Below are positions 33,401 through 37,642 of a DNA stretch of 64,000 bases, in pieces. Under the pieces are notes generated by a model, which saw only the letters and a list, made by a program, of their open reading frames with translations, ran no database searches and had not been told where the DNA came from. Both the position numbers and the translations under genes were made by a program. How positions within the stretch are numbered: the first letter of the stretch is position 1; the number at the start of each line of letters is the position of its first letter. The DNA is from Alphaproteobacteria bacterium (lineage in GTDB: Bacteria > Pseudomonadota > Alphaproteobacteria > RF32 > CAG-239), in contig JAFSWL010000022.1 in NCBI GenBank assembly GCA_017444525.1, forward strand, positions 6,646 through 70,645, written 5' to 3'.

Positions 33401-36400
33401 CTAATTCCTCCTGTTACGGGCTACTTCCGGCAAACTGTAACCGGATACGTTTTTATCGACATCAATAAATGAACCGTTGCTTTTTAAATATCCGACTTCA
33501 TTATTCTGGCCGGAAACAACGCGTCCGTTGGCAGATAAGCGTCCGACATATTCGCCGTTATTTGATAGAATCGTGTTACCGATGGTATAAACATGACCAA
33601 TAATATTATTCTGTGTATCTATTGCCAATGCGTCAGTCAAAATCTTGCCGATAATCGTGCCGTTATAGTATATTTTACCATCGAATCCAACTATACCTTT
33701 TAGTGTATCATCATTACCGATAACGATATCGCCGCTGATTACTTCTCCCAAAAATTTACCGCTGCCACTGATAACCTTTCCGTCAGACAGTGTTTTCCCC
33801 GACATAATATGCTTGGTATCATAATATTCACCATTAGGAGCCGCCGTACCGACAACTTCTCCGGCGGAATTAATTACTGCACCGGACTGAAGCAAAACCA
33901 GATTGCTGCTGTTACCTCCGCCAGGTAACATAGCTGCTATTTCTTTTCTGTTAGCCCCAACAATCATACCCAGGCTATTTGTCATTCCTATTGGATTGCC
34001 GTATACATCTGACATAACTCCTTCCGGCAAAACTTCTCCGACAATTTTATCGCTATTGAGGATGTGTCCGTCCGGAATCACTTTGCCCGTAACCTCACCC
34101 CGACGATATTTTTGTTTGGAGCCATCTTTGACATTTTCAAGCTCAATTACTTTACCGGTGGAAACCACATATCCCAAATAAGCGCCGTCATATCCGCGGA
34201 CACTGCCTTGTTTGACAACACCGGCAACCAACCGACCTGTCTTATCAAACATATATCCTTTGGCATCTATTTGACCAATTTTACTACCCTTATAATCTAC
34301 GACGGATAAATCATAATTGACTTTGCCCAATAAATTACCGCTGGTATCAACTACATACGCCGGACGGATATTTTTGCCGACAATCCCGTTATAATAGCCG
34401 ATATCCCCGCTGTTTATATTGTCAACAACCGCGCCAATCTGATCGTAAACAAGTCCGTCAGGGAACAGATGTCCTATTTTATGTCCCGAAGAATCTGCCA
34501 CAATATTAATCTCCGGAACAGCGTAACCATATATTTTATTATTTCTGCCGACTAATAAATTATTGACACTGACGTATGCCGACTTGCCATCAGAAAGTGC
34601 AATATGTCCGGTTTGATCTACCGTTCCCAGAGGTTTTCCATCGAATCCGTAACCATATTTTGCATCAGAAACTCTTCCTATATATACTCCATCGACATCA
34701 TAAACATCTCCGTAAGAATCCGCACAGCCGACAGCTTCGCCGCTTTCGTTGCGCAATAAACCGCTTTCATCCAGAACTCCCATCGGCTTCCATGTTGTAG
34801 CAGACAAAACAAAATTCCTGCGGACAAGGTGTCCTTTAATCTTAGGTTCTTCCAAATCAAGAACTGTACCATCCGGATTAAGGCATCCTATCTCCTGATT
34901 ATTGACATCGCGTACATAACCATCAGCAGATGCTTCTCCTATGTAAGAACACTCATTATCATAAACACTGCCGGTCATCATAGTACGTCCGGCAAATACT
35001 CCTTCCGGTGTCCACACCGTACCGTCCGGATAAATTTTATAGCCGGTTTCTTTACCTTCGCGCCGAACCAACCCGTCTTTATCAAGTTTCAAACTGTAAT
35101 CACATCCCCAGTTAACAATATATCCTTGTCTTACACCTCTAGCCAAGATTTTGGCTCCGGACATATCAGTAATCAAACCATCTGGGCGAATTTTTCCGAT
35201 AACCTTTTGCTGGTCTGTGATTTCTCCGCGATTATTAATTGTTCCCAACAACTCTCCGGCCGGTGTAATCGGTAAGAGCAGTTTATCAATCGTGCCTCCG
35301 ATGATTCTTCTGCCTAATGCGCGAATATTACCGTTGGCATCTACAATTCCGATAATTTCCTTATCGTTACGTACCAAACCGTTTTTATCGACATAACCTA
35401 TAACATGACCCGCATCGTCATAAGCTATAAGAGCTTCATCTCCGCGAACACCTATAATATTACCGTTTCCATCGACAATATTTCCGTTTTCATCAACGTG
35501 ACCTATCATATTTCCATTAAAATCACGAACATTGCCATCTTTATTGATATAACCTATCACATTGCCGTTTTCGTCAACTACAAGTTCTTCAGCTTCACCG
35601 GTACGACCGACTATGTCACCCGAATAATCTCTGCGAATCAATTGCCCTTTTTCATCAGTTGTTCCCAAAAACGCACCATCAAAATCGTGTACAACGCCTT
35701 TTTCATCTACAAAACCCATAATTTTTCCGTTTTTATCCAAAGCAATACGTATATCACTCTTGCGACCTATGGCATTACCGTTTTCATCAATGATATTACC
35801 ATTTTCATCGGTATGTCCGATTAGATTACCGTCAAAATCATATACATTGCCGTCGGCATCAATATAACCGATAGGATTGCCATTAGCATCAACCGCTACT
35901 TCACGCTGATAACCAATGATATTTCTATTTTCATCTAGGACATTACCGTTTTCATCTACATGACCAATTACAGTACCGTTTAAATCATGAGCTATGCCGT
36001 TTTCATCTATATAACCGATGATAACACCGTTTTCATCAATAATGAGTTTGGCTTTGTCACCTACGCTGCCCAAAACAGTTACTTTCGGTTTATTACCAAT
36101 AATACTGCCGCTTTCATCAACATAGCCGATTAGATTACCGTTGTTGTCATGAACCAGATTTTCATCATCTATATAACCGATAACATTACCGTTTTCATCA
36201 AGTGCCAAATCATGCCATTCATCGCTGACACGACCTATAATTTTACCATTCTTATCGATTATATTGCCATTTTCATCAACATGACCGATTAGATTACCAT
36301 TAAAATCACGAACATTGCCATTTTCATCAACATATCCTATAATATTGCCGGCATCGTCATAAACCATCTGAGCTTGTCCGCCGCGCTTACCGATTATTTG

Positions 36401-37642
36401 CTTTGTTGTAATGGTTCCGTCAGGATTCATGTGACCGATAATATTACCGTCGGCATCAACCACATCTCCGTTAGGCATAACCACTCCGATAACATTGCCG
36501 TCAGCATCGGTTACAACTTCACCGGCTTTTGCCACATGACCGATAATATTGCCGTTAGCATCAATTACGTTACTGTTTTTATCCAAATGACCGATTACAT
36601 TACCATCCGTATCAACCACACTTCCGTCCGGCAAAACTTTACCGATAATCTGCCCGTTGGCATCAACAACTATACCTGCTTCAACCGCTTTTCCGATAAC
36701 TTTTCCATTTGAATCGACAACCGTACCGTCAGGCAACATAGTCCCAATTGCATTGCCATCAATGTCATACGCTACACCATTGGCATCGACATAACCGATG
36801 ACATTATCGTTTTCATCCATAATCAATTTGCTGTTGGCGGCAACACCAATGATATTACCTTCAGAGTCAACAATCATACCATCCGCATTAACTCGACCGA
36901 TGACATTGCCCTTACCGTCAGACACATTACCGTTTTCATCAATGGCACCTATAACTTTTCCATCCGGACCAATGGCATAACGGTAACCACCAATTGCAAC
37001 ACCGCTACTTGGAACGGCCGCAACTATATCTGTTTCGCAAAAATTACAATTTTCTTTTGTAACTGCACTGCCGCGTACAGTTATCTCGTCGTGCTTGGCA
37101 TTTTGTGCGGATATATTTGTTTCATGCCATACAATCTTAAAATTGCTTTGTACATTTCCGGCAACACTAGGCACCCATTTGGTAGTAACCATACAGGTTA
37201 AATTGCCTCGCAACTCCTTATTCTGACAATTGCTTGAATCATAAGAAAAGCCATCAAACGGAGCATCTTCCAATTCTACCGACAAAATACGTATTTCACG
37301 TTTGCCATTGCTGCCTATTGTCAATACATTTGTAGCTTCGTTACCCAATATAATCTGACCCATATTAAGCTCAAGCGGTGACAAAGTAATGGGACGCTCA
37401 TCATCTTCTGTTTTATCGAACTCAATTTCATTCGGAATTTCTTGATTTTTAATGTTAATATCCGTTTCTGCATCAATACCGCTATCATCGACTATTGTTG
37501 CCCTTTCTTCCTCTTGCGTATCGGCTGTTGCTAGCATAAGAGTAAAGAGGAAAGTCAACAGCGCAATTATGCCGATAATCAAGATAATCTTATCGGTTTT
37601 TTTGACATATCTGTCGGCTCTTGTTAACGGACCTTTACTCAT
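33401..37642 (-). CDS. 1413-aa membrane-anchored repeat protein encoded between virB9 and virB10
   Basis: Short basic N-terminus, one TM helix (aa 19-38), an Ig-like beta segment (aa ~85-195), then ~1200 aa of 17-residue repeats (e.g. PDGTVVDSNGKVIGKAV / EAGIVVDANGQIIGKVL). The start abuts the virB9 stop. Its stop TAG lies 2 nt from the virB10 ATG, with AGGAGG inside its last codons. Confidence 0.85.
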   Translation of the reverse strand: MSKGPLTRADRYVKKTDKIILIIGIIALLTFLFTLMLATADTQEEERATIVDDSGIDAETDINIKNQEIPNEIEFDKTEDDERPITLSPLELNMGQIILGNEATNVLTIGSNGKREIRILSVELEDAPFDGFSYDSSNCQNKELRGNLTCMVTTKWVPSVAGNVQSNFKIVWHETNISAQNAKHDEITVRGSAVTKENCNFCETDIVAAVPSSGVAIGGYRYAIGPDGKVIGAIDENGNVSDGKGNVIGRVNADGMIVDSEGNIIGVAANSKLIMDENDNVIGYVDANGVAYDIDGNAIGTMLPDGTVVDSNGKVIGKAVEAGIVVDANGQIIGKVLPDGSVVDTDGNVIGHLDKNSNVIDANGNIIGHVAKAGEVVTDADGNVIGVVMPNGDVVDADGNIIGHMNPDGTITTKQIIGKRGGQAQMVYDDAGNIIGYVDENGNVRDFNGNLIGHVDENGNIIDKNGKIIGRVSDEWHDLALDENGNVIGYIDDENLVHDNNGNLIGYVDESGSIIGNKPKVTVLGSVGDKAKLIIDENGVIIGYIDENGIAHDLNGTVIGHVDENGNVLDENRNIIGYQREVAVDANGNPIGYIDADGNVYDFDGNLIGHTDENGNIIDENGNAIGRKSDIRIALDKNGKIMGFVDEKGVVHDFDGAFLGTTDEKGQLIRRDYSGDIVGRTGEAEELVVDENGNVIGYINKDGNVRDFNGNMIGHVDENGNIVDGNGNIIGVRGDEALIAYDDAGHVIGYVDKNGLVRNDKEIIGIVDANGNIRALGRRIIGGTIDKLLLPITPAGELLGTINNRGEITDQQKVIGKIRPDGLITDMSGAKILARGVRQGYIVNWGCDYSLKLDKDGLVRREGKETGYKIYPDGTVWTPEGVFAGRTMMTGSVYDNECSYIGEASADGYVRDVNNQEIGCLNPDGTVLDLEEPKIKGHLVRRNFVLSATTWKPMGVLDESGLLRNESGEAVGCADSYGDVYDVDGVYIGRVSDAKYGYGFDGKPLGTVDQTGHIALSDGKSAYVSVNNLLVGRNNKIYGYAVPEINIVADSSGHKIGHLFPDGLVYDQIGAVVDNINSGDIGYYNGIVGKNIRPAYVVDTSGNLLGKVNYDLSVVDYKGSKIGQIDAKGYMFDKTGRLVAGVVKQGSVRGYDGAYLGYVVSTGKVIELENVKDGSKQKYRRGEVTGKVIPDGHILNSDKIVGEVLPEGVMSDVYGNPIGMTNSLGMIVGANRKEIAAMLPGGGNSSNLVLLQSGAVINSAGEVVGTAAPNGEYYDTKHIMSGKTLSDGKVISGSGKFLGEVISGDIVIGNDDTLKGIVGFDGKIYYNGTIIGKILTDALAIDTQNNIIGHVYTIGNTILSNNGEYVGRLSANGRVVSGQNNEVGYLKSNGSFIDVDKNVSGYSLPEVARNRRN
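33440..36980 (-). repeat. intragenic coding repeat array (17-residue units, ~55-residue super-repeats)
   Basis: Crisp repeats run from ~35.3 to 36.98 kb, with the DENG-encoding motif CCGTTTTCATC recurring on the plus strand. They become degenerate toward the 3' end. An exact 25-mer is shared at 35514-35538 and 36297-36321. Confidence 0.85.

What the first reader, a model, noticed from the sequence alone, without database searches (positions are those of the whole stretch)
33401..37642. A 1413-aa single-pass membrane protein made almost entirely of 17-residue repeats is wedged between virB9 and virB10
Canonical VirB operons run virB9-virB10 directly. Here a 4.2-kb gene sits between them and is translationally coupled on both sides: its ATG abuts the virB9 stop, and its TAG lies 2 nt from the virB10 ATG with AGGAGG inside its last codons. 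So it is very likely a stoichiometric machine component rather than cargo. Its architecture is a short basic N-terminus, one TM (aa 19-38), an Ig-like beta segment, then ~1200 aa of units such as PDGTVVDSNGKVIGKAV / EAGIVVDANGQIIGKVL / PDGSVVDTDGNVIGHLD / KNSNVIDANGNIIGHVA (nt 36530-36733). These nest into ~55-residue super-repeats (IGY[VI]DENGNVRDFNGN[LM]IGHVDENGNI[IV]D.NG.IIG). I cannot place this repeat in a named T4SS family. A regular short Gly/Asp/Asn repeat of this kind would be compatible with a long solenoid or fibre, but that is speculation.
Basis: partly seen in the sequence, partly recalled or inferred. Interest (0 to 1): 0.9.

Follow-up and report, generated by a model that had tools for sequence, protein, structure and literature searches.

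The report
Detached front half of giant VirB10
The 4.2-kb gene "wedged" between virB9 and virB10 is the inner-membrane front half of an unusually large, repeat-filled VirB10 that one lineage of uncultured gut and rumen Alphaproteobacteria has split into two tightly coupled genes, which matters because VirB10 is normally the single protein that bridges both membranes of a type IV secretion machine.

Summary
A 1413-aa ORF lies at 33401-37642 (minus strand). It has one N-terminal TM helix, a beta-sandwich domain and about 1,190 aa with a 17-residue period. Its start abuts the virB9 stop, and its stop lies 2 nt before the next ATG.

It is not an extra gene. Related uncultured gut Alphaproteobacteria carry one giant VirB10 of about 1,900-2,470 aa at the same operon position (virB8-virB8-virB9-virB10-virB11). 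The N-terminal module of that giant is homologous to this ORF (here X). Its C-terminal TrbI barrel is homologous to the downstream 1385-aa gene (B10C).

The split is conserved. 63 species-level genomes carry complete X and B10C genes. In 52 where it was measured, the stop-to-start gap is -1 to +5 nt. X always ends in ...LPEVA(R/K/Q)NRRN. B10C always starts with a Sec-type leader followed by EITAIDFNG. On a TrbI-domain tree the split forms make one clade.

The repeat matches named Pfam families (Bflower_2, Bflower, DUF3659). AlphaFold2 predicts beta-hairpins, but their overall shape is unresolved.

My reading is a two-piece VirB10 whose halves reassemble in the periplasm. The evolutionary identity is well supported; the reassembly is inferred.

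This is a new variant of a known kind. CagY and DotG are the known repeat-expanded VirB10s. I found no report of a split VirB10.

The parts
33401..37642 (-). X: the inner-membrane-anchored N-terminal half of a split giant VirB10 (1413 aa)
   Evidence: The ORF is confirmed. Its N-terminal module is homologous to the N-terminus of unsplit 1,900-2,470-aa VirB10 proteins. It occupies the virB10 slot in synteny.
37517..37642 (-). Short basic cytoplasmic N-terminus (aa 1-18, with invariant Y12) and a single TM helix (to about aa 42)
   Evidence: Hydropathy gives a TM segment at aa 15-42 and AlphaFold2 gives a helix at 8-39. K/R residues precede the helix and an acidic stretch follows it. Y12 is invariant in alignment A1.
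37061..37390 (-). Periplasmic ASH/PapD-like (HYDIN-type) beta-sandwich domain, aa 85-194, followed by a conserved CxxC at aa 199-202 (nt 37037-37048)
   Evidence: AlphaFold2 pLDDT is about 80. Foldseek matches 2e6j with TMt 0.70 and 6fvi with 0.60. There is a weak NCBIfam choice-of-anchor D hit. C139, C150, W156, P158, W172 and C199 are invariant.
36341..36982 (-). Fixed array of regular 17-aa beta-hairpin units, aa 221-434
   Evidence: Pfam Bflower_2 and DUF3659 match here. AlphaFold2 predicts hairpins with pLDDT 70-90. The region aligns without gaps across 64 orthologues.
35243..36340 (-). Cassette of 49-54-aa super-repeats (three hairpins each), aa 435-800. Its copy number varies between species.
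   Evidence: Super-repeat starts are at 435, 488, 542, 591, 696 and 748. DNA repeat spacings are 147-162 nt. The gap fraction is 0.35-0.65 at aa 451-700 in 64 orthologues. X length ranges from 1104 to 1814 aa.
33473..35242 (-). Fixed array of degenerate hairpin repeats with conserved Cys residues, aa 801-1390
   Evidence: The 17-aa period persists. The region aligns almost without gaps, at 38-63% identity, across 64 orthologues. G, D and C columns are nearly invariant.
33401..33472 (-). Conserved C-terminal tail ...IGYLKSNGSFIDVDKNVSGYSLPEVARNRRN and stop codon. The last codons contain AGGAGG (33412-33407), which serves the next gene.
   Evidence: The tail is shared by the complete X-family proteins and is absent from the unsplit giants. 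The last 13 aa are 84% identical across 64 orthologues. The sequence is shown.
29241..33398 (-). B10C: the outer-membrane half of the split VirB10 (1385 aa). It has a leader (aa 1-26), degenerate hairpin repeats (aa 27 to about 1000), a TrbI/VirB10 barrel (aa 1090-1293) and a Pro/Gln-rich tail.
   Evidence: Pfam gives TrbI at 5.5e-32 and Bflower_2 at 3.5e-39. NCBIfam VirB10 and ComB10 models match the same region. The 17-aa period is present. No TM segment is found.
33321..33398 (-). Sec-type signal-peptide-like leader of B10C (MLRIVKTAQKILFLAGVLLPLKGYTA), followed by the conserved EITAIDF
   Evidence: In 34 representative orthologues the leader is 25-30 aa, has about 3 K/R in its first 12 residues, and has a hydrophobic run of median 12. 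It ends in Ala in 26 of 34. The leader sequences diverge while the mature N-terminus is conserved. Cleavage was not tested.
29520..30131 (-). TrbI/VirB10 C-terminal barrel domain of B10C
   Evidence: Pfam PF03743 matches aa 1090-1293. The domain is 41-51% identical to those of the unsplit giants.
37643..39331 (-). virB9 (CagX family) with a C-terminal SPOR domain. Its stop codon abuts the X start codon.
   Evidence: Pfam gives CagX at 2.8e-11 and SPOR at 3.7e-4. The junction is shown.
28256..29404 (-). virB11 ATPase. The mechanical ORF start overlaps B10C by 164 nt, so the true start is probably further in.
   Evidence: Pfam T2SSE matches. Relatives have a 324-aa VirB11 that starts about 10 nt after the virB10 stop.

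Best explanation
X is the N-terminal half of a giant, repeat-expanded VirB10 that underwent one ancient gene fission.

The ancestral form is still found in related uncultured gut Alphaproteobacteria. It is one polypeptide of about 1,900-2,470 aa. It consists of a short cytoplasmic N-terminus, a TM helix, an ASH-like beta-sandwich, a CxxC motif, roughly 1,600 aa of 17-residue beta-hairpin repeats, and a TrbI barrel.

In the window's lineage the gene is cut inside the repeat region. X keeps the inner-membrane anchor, the beta-sandwich and about 70 hairpin lengths, and ends in a conserved tail. The second gene (B10C) has gained a Sec-type leader. This implies that it is exported on its own to build the outer-membrane core with VirB9. 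An SD sequence inside the last X codons and a stop-to-start gap of -1 to +5 nt keep the two halves co-translated.

Shown: the homology, the synteny, the conserved break point, the single origin, and the intact reading frames in 63 species.

Inferred: that the two halves re-associate non-covalently in the periplasm. The most likely contacts are the conserved X tail and last hairpins with the conserved EITAIDFNG N-terminus of mature B10C. This would restore the inner-to-outer-membrane bridge that a normal VirB10 provides as one chain. Also inferred: that the super-repeat cassette of variable copy number sets the length or bulk of this periplasmic structure.
For: Homologue groups. Homologues fall into two groups. 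One is standalone X-like proteins of 1,100-1,580 aa without TrbI. The other is proteins of about 1,900-2,470 aa with the same repeats plus a C-terminal TrbI domain.

End-to-end correspondence. X aa 1-203 aligns only to residues 1-199 of the giants. B10C aa 1021-1385 aligns only to their C-terminal 400 aa. The N-module alignment has invariant Y12, P89, G100, C139, C150, W156, P158, W172 and C199.

Synteny. Split relatives show virB8-small ORF-virB8-virB9-X-B10C-virB11 (L001, L003). The unsplit relative shows virB8-small ORF-virB8-virB9-giant virB10-virB11 (L005, L006).

Conserved break point. Every complete X-family protein ends ...G-Y-x-L-x-E-x-A-x-N-R-R-N or a near variant. Every B10C starts with a divergent leader followed by (A/Q)EITA(I/V)(D/N)F. 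Neither motif occurs in any of the 79 giants.

Conservation across species. 63 species-level genomes carry complete X and B10C genes. The stop-to-start gap is -1 to +5 nt in 52 genomes.

Single origin. In a neighbour-joining tree of the TrbI domain, the 78 split forms are monophyletic. One clean bipartition separates them from the 79 giants. At the midpoint root they nest within the giants.

Topology. X has a 22-residue hydrophobic run with K/R residues before it, as a membrane anchor would. The B10C leaders have hydrophobic runs of median 12, as signal peptides do.
Against: No experiment or complex prediction shows that X and B10C bind each other.

Cleavage of the B10C leader is not verified. 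The -3 position before the conserved E is not consistently a small residue. If the leader were an uncleaved anchor, B10C would be a self-sufficient VirB10 and X would be an accessory.

The break point could not be mapped onto the unsplit proteins, because the repeat regions give no diagonal. A 'healed' junction aligns across the giants only slightly better than control joins do (109 bits against 79-102).

The two halves sum to 2,549-3,211 aa, against 1,906-2,473 aa for the giants. So the event was not a simple cut, and repeats were gained afterwards or at the time.

The tree is distance-based, rooted at the midpoint and has no outgroup.
Confidence: 0.8

Rival explanations
1. X is an accessory paralogue rather than half of a bridge. 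In this reading B10C's N-terminal hydrophobic segment is an uncleaved signal anchor. B10C alone would then be a complete bitopic VirB10. X would be an extra inner-membrane protein carrying a duplicated repeat array with some other role, such as spacing, cell-wall contact or surface display.
For: The combined length of X plus B10C exceeds that of the unsplit giants by about 500 aa. The N-terminal 150 aa of B10C best match positions about 320-495 of the giants, just after their N-module. This is what would be expected if B10C retained most of the repeat region. Leader cleavage is untested, and a few leaders have hydrophobic runs of up to 18 residues.
Against: The leaders are 25-30 aa with a median hydrophobic run of 12 and mostly end in Ala. 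This is typical of cleaved Sec signals and short for a TM helix, and hydropathy finds no TM segment in B10C. The VirB10 N-module (conserved Y12 motif, TM helix, ASH domain, CxxC) is found only in X. X and B10C share only generic repeat similarity of 23-26% in many registers, with no colinear paralogy.
Confidence: 0.12
2. The split is not real at the protein level. One giant VirB10 would be made by programmed frameshifting or stop-codon read-through, or the stop codon is an assembly or sequencing error or a recent pseudogenising mutation.
For: The two ORFs are separated by only 2 nt, and the unsplit form exists in relatives.
Against: The same break is present in 63 independent species-level assemblies with both halves intact. 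The frame relation between X and B10C is not conserved, because the gaps are -1, 0, +1, +2, +3 or +5 nt. No single recoding event could therefore be conserved. A fused product would carry a signal-peptide-like segment in its middle. The X tail and the B10C leader are features specific to the split clade.
Confidence: 0.02
3. X is an Rhs/YD-type or adhesin-like exported product that merely sits in the virB operon. In this reading it would be cargo or a surface fibre.
For: Pfam RHS_repeat scores 48 bits against a cut-off of 22, and TIGR01643 YD repeat scores 40 against 15.8. The best Foldseek matches of the repeat model are Rhs cores, teneurins and Tc-toxin BC shells, at E 1e-16 to 1e-11.
Against: The Rhs/YD sequence hits cover one stretch, aa 585-616. 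The structural matches have TM-scores of at most 0.12 and rmsd of about 26 A, so they reflect local hairpin likeness only. No Rhs core-closing domain or C-terminal toxin domain was hit. The N-terminal TM helix with positive-inside topology anchors X in the inner membrane. X is orthologous to the front of VirB10.
Confidence: 0.04

Closest known systems
Canonical VirB10 / TrbI (Agrobacterium VirB10, pKM101 TraF, R388 TrwE)
   Same: The operon position is between virB9 and virB11. The order of parts is a short cytoplasmic N-terminus and one TM helix at the front and a TrbI barrel at the end. From established knowledge, VirB10 spans both membranes and couples inner-membrane ATPases to the outer-membrane channel.
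   Different: A proline-rich linker of about 100 aa is replaced here by an ASH-like domain plus roughly 2,200 aa of beta-hairpin repeats. The polypeptide is also cut in two, and the barrel half has its own Sec-type leader.
Helicobacter pylori CagY (repeat-expanded VirB10 homologue)
   Same: It is a very large VirB10 homologue whose extra mass is a repeat region N-terminal to the conserved VirB10 domain (PMC9371333). Its repeat number varies, as does the cassette here (PMC6761968).
   Different: CagY repeats are alpha-helical modules (Delahay et al. 2008, as cited in PMC9371333). They change through intragenic recombination (PMC6761968). Here the repeats are beta-hairpins of the Bflower/DUF3659 type. 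The DNA copies are at most 78-80% identical and no tandem array is detectable. CagY is one polypeptide.
Legionella/Coxiella DotG (IcmE), the type IVB VirB10 homologue
   Same: It has an N-terminal membrane anchor, a middle region with a variable number of repeats, and a conserved C-terminal TrbI domain. Protein length varies between species from 1,000 to more than 1,500 aa (PMC6761968).
   Different: DotG repeats are pentapeptide repeats, the system is type IVB, and the protein is a single chain. The window's system is VirB-like, with VirB4, VirB8 (two copies), VirB9 and VirB11.
Beta-flower fold families (Pfam PF21784, PF21785; clan CL0395; Durairaj et al. 2023)
   Same: The sequence matches are far above the gathering cut-offs. 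The unit is a beta-hairpin with a [DNEQ]xxG tip motif, as that paper describes. Here the unit consensus is ENGNVVDTNGNIIGHVD.
   Different: The described beta-flowers are small closed barrels of 8-12 strands, about 96 aa, often lipoproteins. Here about 130 hairpin lengths are strung in two proteins of a secretion machine. Whether they close into flowers is not shown (pTM 0.38-0.41).

Membership tests
VirB10/TrbI family (for the X + B10C pair) | C-terminal TrbI/VirB10 barrel domain (PF03743) | tested here: met
   The domain is absent from X and present in B10C at aa 1090-1293 (E 5.5e-32, 111.6 bits against a cut-off of 35). X alone therefore does not meet this feature; the pair does.
VirB10/TrbI family (for the X + B10C pair) | Bitopic N-terminus: short cytoplasmic segment plus a single TM helix | tested here: met
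   X meets this, with an AlphaFold2 helix at 8-39, a hydropathy segment at 15-42, and K/R residues before the helix. B10C has no TM segment.
VirB10/TrbI family (for the X + B10C pair) | Gene lies between virB9 and virB11 and is orthologous to a single virB10 in relatives | tested here: met
   Synteny in L001 and L003 (split) against L005 and L006 (unsplit) shows this. The N-module alignment A1 supports it, as does the TrbI tree.
VirB10/TrbI family (for the X + B10C pair) | One polypeptide spanning the inner and outer membranes | tested here: not met
   There are two ORFs with a conserved stop codon and a conserved leader on the second ORF, in 63 genomes. This is the respect in which the locus departs from the family.
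VirB10/TrbI family (for the X + B10C pair) | Physical bridge and energy coupling between the inner-membrane ATPases and the outer-membrane core | not testable with these tools
   This needs biochemistry or a complex structure prediction.
Beta-flower (Pfam PF21785 / PF21784, clan CL0395) | Profile score above the Pfam gathering threshold | tested here: met
   Bflower_2 scores 241.3 bits against 38 in 11 stretches, and Bflower scores 118.4 against 25.
Beta-flower (Pfam PF21785 / PF21784, clan CL0395) | Beta-hairpin 'petal' with a semi-conserved [DNEQ]xxG tip | tested here: met
   The unit consensus is ENGNVVDTNGNIIGHVD. AlphaFold2 predicts alternating 5- and 3-residue strands every 17 aa. The motif definition is quoted.
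Beta-flower (Pfam PF21785 / PF21784, clan CL0395) | Closed 8-, 10- or 12-stranded barrel with 4-, 5- or 6-fold symmetry | tested here: inconclusive
   Local confidence is good but pTM is 0.38-0.41. Coordinates could not be inspected. No global structural match exists in PDB or BFVD.
Rhs / YD-repeat proteins | YD repeats forming a closed shell, with a core-closing domain and a C-terminal toxin | tested here: not met
   The sequence hit covers only aa 585-616. Foldseek TM-scores against Rhs, teneurin and Tc shells are at most 0.12. No Rhs-core or toxin domain was hit.
CagY-type recombining repeat region | Near-identical tandem DNA repeats that allow in-frame recombination | tested here: not met
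   Tandem Repeats Finder finds nothing. The best direct repeats are 78-80% identical over 92-142 nt. Copy number does differ between species.

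The most novel reading that the evidence does not exclude
In a large clade of gut and rumen Alphaproteobacteria, VirB10 has given up covalent continuity. VirB10 is otherwise the one T4SS subunit thought to need a single chain reaching from the inner to the outer membrane in order to transmit ATP-driven conformational signals. 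In this reading the two halves rebuild the bridge from interlocking beta-hairpin arrays. For example, hairpins from both chains might complete shared beta-flower barrels. The result would be a multi-megadalton periplasmic (or partly surface-exposed) beta-structure of a kind not seen in any solved T4SS, with a cassette of variable copy number tuning its length.
Probability: 0.25. Interest if true: 0.85.

Novelty: new variant of a known kind. Interest (0 to 1): 0.66.

Why it matters
VirB10 is the signature envelope-spanning subunit of type IV secretion systems. Models of channel gating rest on its being one chain that links the inner-membrane ATPases to the outer-membrane pore.

A naturally split VirB10, conserved under selection in dozens of species, is a ready-made test of whether that covalent link is needed. 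It also adds a third kind of repeat expansion of VirB10. CagY uses alpha-helical repeats and DotG uses pentapeptide repeats; this one uses beta-hairpin (beta-flower/DUF3659) repeats.

It gives the recently named beta-flower repeat its first clear machine context. The carriers are widespread but uncultured members of human and ruminant gut communities, and their secretion systems have not been described in the papers I could search.

Tried and rejected
1. Programmed frameshift, read-through or sequencing error. Rejected, because the frame relation varies (gaps of -1 to +5 nt) while the break is conserved in 63 genomes.

2. Recent segmental duplication producing X from B10C. Rejected, because the two share only 23-26% generic repeat similarity in many registers.

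3. Mapping the break point onto the unsplit proteins. Sliding-window BLAST gives no diagonal inside the repeat region. A 'healed junction' test was only marginally better than the controls. This remains inconclusive.

4. Rhs/YD membership. Rejected.

5. CagY-like recombining DNA repeats. Rejected.

6. Scanning genomes with the N-module alignment A1 failed, because no stretch was conserved enough. The TrbI alignment A2 was used instead.

7. The exhaustive search with X aa 1-215 was dominated by the ASH-like domain, which is repeated in unrelated giant proteins. It did not measure the size of the family.

8. A sequence search of the PDB with X found nothing at E up to 1.

9. Promoter and terminator scans across virB8 to virB11 were at chance level: 40 found against 36.4 expected, and 10 against 10.2.

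10. A plasmid search found a 2131-aa DotG-like TrbI protein in Teredinibacter purpureus that overlaps X's repeats at 27% identity. Pfam shows that its repeats are not beta-flower repeats, so the match is probably compositional.

11. Literature searches for a split VirB10, or for T4SSs of these gut Alphaproteobacteria, found nothing.

Full report
**What is there**

The window carries a chromosomal VirB-type type IV secretion (T4SS) operon on the minus strand. In order it encodes:
- VirB4 (51973-54402);
- several unassigned ORFs;
- a 1707-aa ORF;
- VirB8 (40450-41292);
- a 62-aa lipoprotein;
- a second VirB8 (39347-40099);
- VirB9/CagX with a SPOR domain (37643-39331);
- the 1413-aa ORF of the finding (33401-37642, here X);
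- a 1385-aa protein with a C-terminal TrbI/VirB10 domain (29241-33398, here B10C);
- VirB11.

Flanking genes such as yidC, engB, hflK/C-like and degP-like show a chromosomal setting.

The virB9 stop codon abuts the X start codon (TAA ATG). X ends AAC AGG AGG AAT TAG, followed by 'ag' and the next ATG.

X has K/R-rich residues before a 22-residue hydrophobic helix, consistent with an N-in topology. An acidic disordered linker follows. Next come a beta-sandwich at aa 85-194, a CxxC motif, and then a 17-residue period that runs to the C-terminus.

The super-repeats are 49-54 aa and confined to about aa 435-800.

**The repeat has a name**

X scores far above the Pfam gathering thresholds for Bflower_2, Bflower and DUF3659, and more weakly for RHS_repeat. 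The beta-flower families were defined in 2023 from AlphaFold models as beta-hairpin 'petals' with a [DNEQ]xxG tip (PMC10584680).

AlphaFold2 models of X aa 1-620 and aa 219-620 give confident hairpins, with pLDDT mostly 70-93. Global confidence is low (pTM 0.38 and 0.41).

Foldseek places the N-terminal domain with ASH/PapD-like (HYDIN, CEP192) domains, at TMt 0.6-0.7. The repeat region resembles Rhs/YD, teneurin, choline-binding and MORN repeats only locally. TM-scores are at most 0.12 and rmsd is about 26 A. So the hairpin nature is supported, while 'flower', 'solenoid' or 'fibre' remains open.

**The key result: X is not an extra gene**

A database search returned two groups of homologues. 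One group is standalone proteins of about 1,100-1,580 aa without TrbI. The other is proteins of about 1,900-2,470 aa, with the same repeats and a C-terminal TrbI domain, from uncultured Alphaproteobacteria.

The giants begin with the same module as X: a basic segment with an invariant Tyr, a TM helix, the beta-sandwich with conserved Cys and Trp, and the CxxC. X aa 1-203 matches only the first 199 residues of the giants. B10C aa 1021-1385 matches only their last roughly 400 residues. The repeat regions in between give no diagonal.

Gene order settles the matter. Relatives with an X-like gene have virB8-small ORF-virB8-virB9-X-B10C-virB11. A relative with a giant has virB8-small ORF-virB8-virB9-giant virB10-virB11. 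X plus B10C therefore occupy the place of one virB10.

**The split is old, single and maintained**

A scan of one genome per species with the TrbI domain found 409 genomes with relatives. The 80 best are all uncultured gut or rumen Alphaproteobacteria, from sheep, deer, yak, horse, rabbit and human.

Every one of these loci that was not truncated is of the split type. 63 have complete X (1104-1814 aa) and B10C (1390-1747 aa) genes. In 52 the X stop and the B10C start are -1 to +5 nt apart.

X always ends ...G-Y-x-L-x-E-x-A-x-N-R-R-N. Its last 13 residues are the best-conserved part of the protein, at 84%. The NRRN codons carry the GGAGG that serves B10C.

B10C always begins with a divergent 25-36-aa leader, followed by the conserved EITA(I/V)(D/N)F. 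In 34 representative leaders of 25-30 aa there are about three K/R in the first 12 residues, and the hydrophobic run has a median of 12. The last residue is usually Ala. Neither the tail nor the mature N-terminus occurs in any giant.

On a neighbour-joining tree of the TrbI domain, the 78 split forms make one clade, separated from the 79 giants by a single branch. At the midpoint root they nest within the giants. This argues for one fission event that was then maintained.

**Architecture of X across 64 orthologues**

The N-module, the first roughly 12 hairpins and the last roughly 700 aa align essentially without gaps. Length variation is concentrated in aa 450-700, the super-repeat cassette.

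The DNA copies are diverged, at most 78-80% identical, with no tandem array by TRF. So the cassette is not a CagY-like recombination hot spot at present.

**How it most likely works**

By established knowledge, VirB10 is anchored in the inner membrane, crosses the periplasm and forms the outer-membrane channel with VirB9 and VirB7. It relays ATP-dependent signals from VirD4 and VirB11. Here those tasks are divided.

X supplies the cytoplasmic tip, the membrane anchor, the ASH-like domain and roughly 70 hairpin lengths. B10C, exported by its own leader, supplies roughly 58 hairpin lengths and the barrel.

I infer that the halves bind each other in the periplasm, most probably through the conserved X tail and the conserved mature N-terminus of B10C. 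Translational coupling would keep them equimolar. The binding, the leader cleavage and the shape of the hairpin arrays have not been shown.

**Rivals**

- B10C might be self-sufficient, with X an accessory paralogue. The roughly 500 aa of extra summed length, and the best matches of the B10C N-terminus near the start of the giants' repeat region, fit this reading. The signal-peptide character of the leader, and the exclusive presence of the VirB10 N-module in X, argue against it.
- Recoding or sequencing error is excluded by the variable frame relation and by the conservation.
- An Rhs-type cargo or adhesin is not supported.

**Comparison with known systems**

CagY and DotG are the known repeat-expanded VirB10 homologues (PMC9371333, PMC6761968). 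Both are single chains, with alpha-helical and pentapeptide repeats respectively.

A giant VirB10 filled with beta-flower/DUF3659 hairpins, and its split form, are not mentioned in any paper I could search. Database names for these proteins are 'hypothetical' or 'DUF3659 domain-containing'.

**Verdict**

It is a new variant of a known kind. I score its interest at 0.66, and its main value is to people who work on T4SS architecture.

Noticed in passing
window 40115-40303 (-): A 62-aa ORF between the two virB8 genes starts MYKKLLIFAIFLVLSAC, which is a lipoprotein signal with an L-S-A-C lipobox. It is a candidate VirB7. A small ORF of 62-72 aa sits at the same place in relatives L001, L003 and L005.
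   Followed up: partly
window 37643-39331 (-): VirB9 is 562 aa. It has a long Gly/Ser-rich low-complexity region and a C-terminal SPOR (peptidoglycan-binding) domain at aa 485-560 (E 3.7e-4, 21.2 bits against a cut-off of 21). This is unusual for VirB9.
   Followed up: no
window 41228-54402 (-): Between virB4 and virB8 lie six ORFs of 234, 262, 518, 381, 455 and 1707 aa. Each has a single N-terminal hydrophobic segment and no significant Pfam or NCBIfam match. No polytopic VirB6 was recognised. A large ORF of 1555 or 1324 aa occupies the same position in relatives.
   Followed up: partly
window 24069-28136 (-): A 1355-aa autotransporter (beta-domain E 1.2e-39) sits directly downstream of virB11. 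In relatives L001 and L003, virB11 is followed directly by engB and yidC, so this gene appears to be inserted here.
   Followed up: partly
window 58477-62093 (+): A TcpQ-like protein, a secretin and a PilO-like (PAP_PilO) protein lie in a row. Together they look like a type IVb pilus or Tcp-like export cluster next to the T4SS.
   Followed up: no
window 28256-29404 (-): The mechanically listed virB11 ORF overlaps the end of B10C by 164 nt. Relatives have a 324-aa VirB11 that starts about 10 nt after the virB10 stop, so the real start is probably an internal codon.
   Followed up: no
L036 (JAFUSA010000009.1), upstream of 6731: The X orthologue in this roe-deer rumen MAG runs for at least 2240 aa and is still open at the locus edge. 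This is far longer than the 1104-1814 aa of the others.
   Followed up: no
L087:7492-13887 (Teredinibacter purpureus plasmid NZ_CP060093.1): A Dot/Icm-like type IVB cluster in a cultured shipworm symbiont encodes a 2131-aa 'TrbI/VirB10 family protein'. It has a long Gly/Asn-rich repeat region that is not of the beta-flower type. It is another giant repeat-bearing VirB10 homologue.
   Followed up: partly
window 29241-29500 (-), C-terminus of B10C: After the TrbI domain comes a tail of about 85 aa rich in Pro, Gln and Ser, ending ...DGDVPELL. Relatives end similarly (VPDFI, VPSLL, APELF), which suggests a conserved C-terminal motif of unknown role.
   Followed up: no
e.g. P0121 (4358 aa, 34 matched stretches): The ASH/PapD-like domain of X (aa 84-170) recurs many times in unrelated giant proteins across the metagenomic protein library. 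It is therefore a widespread repeat module, not one specific to the T4SS.
   Followed up: no
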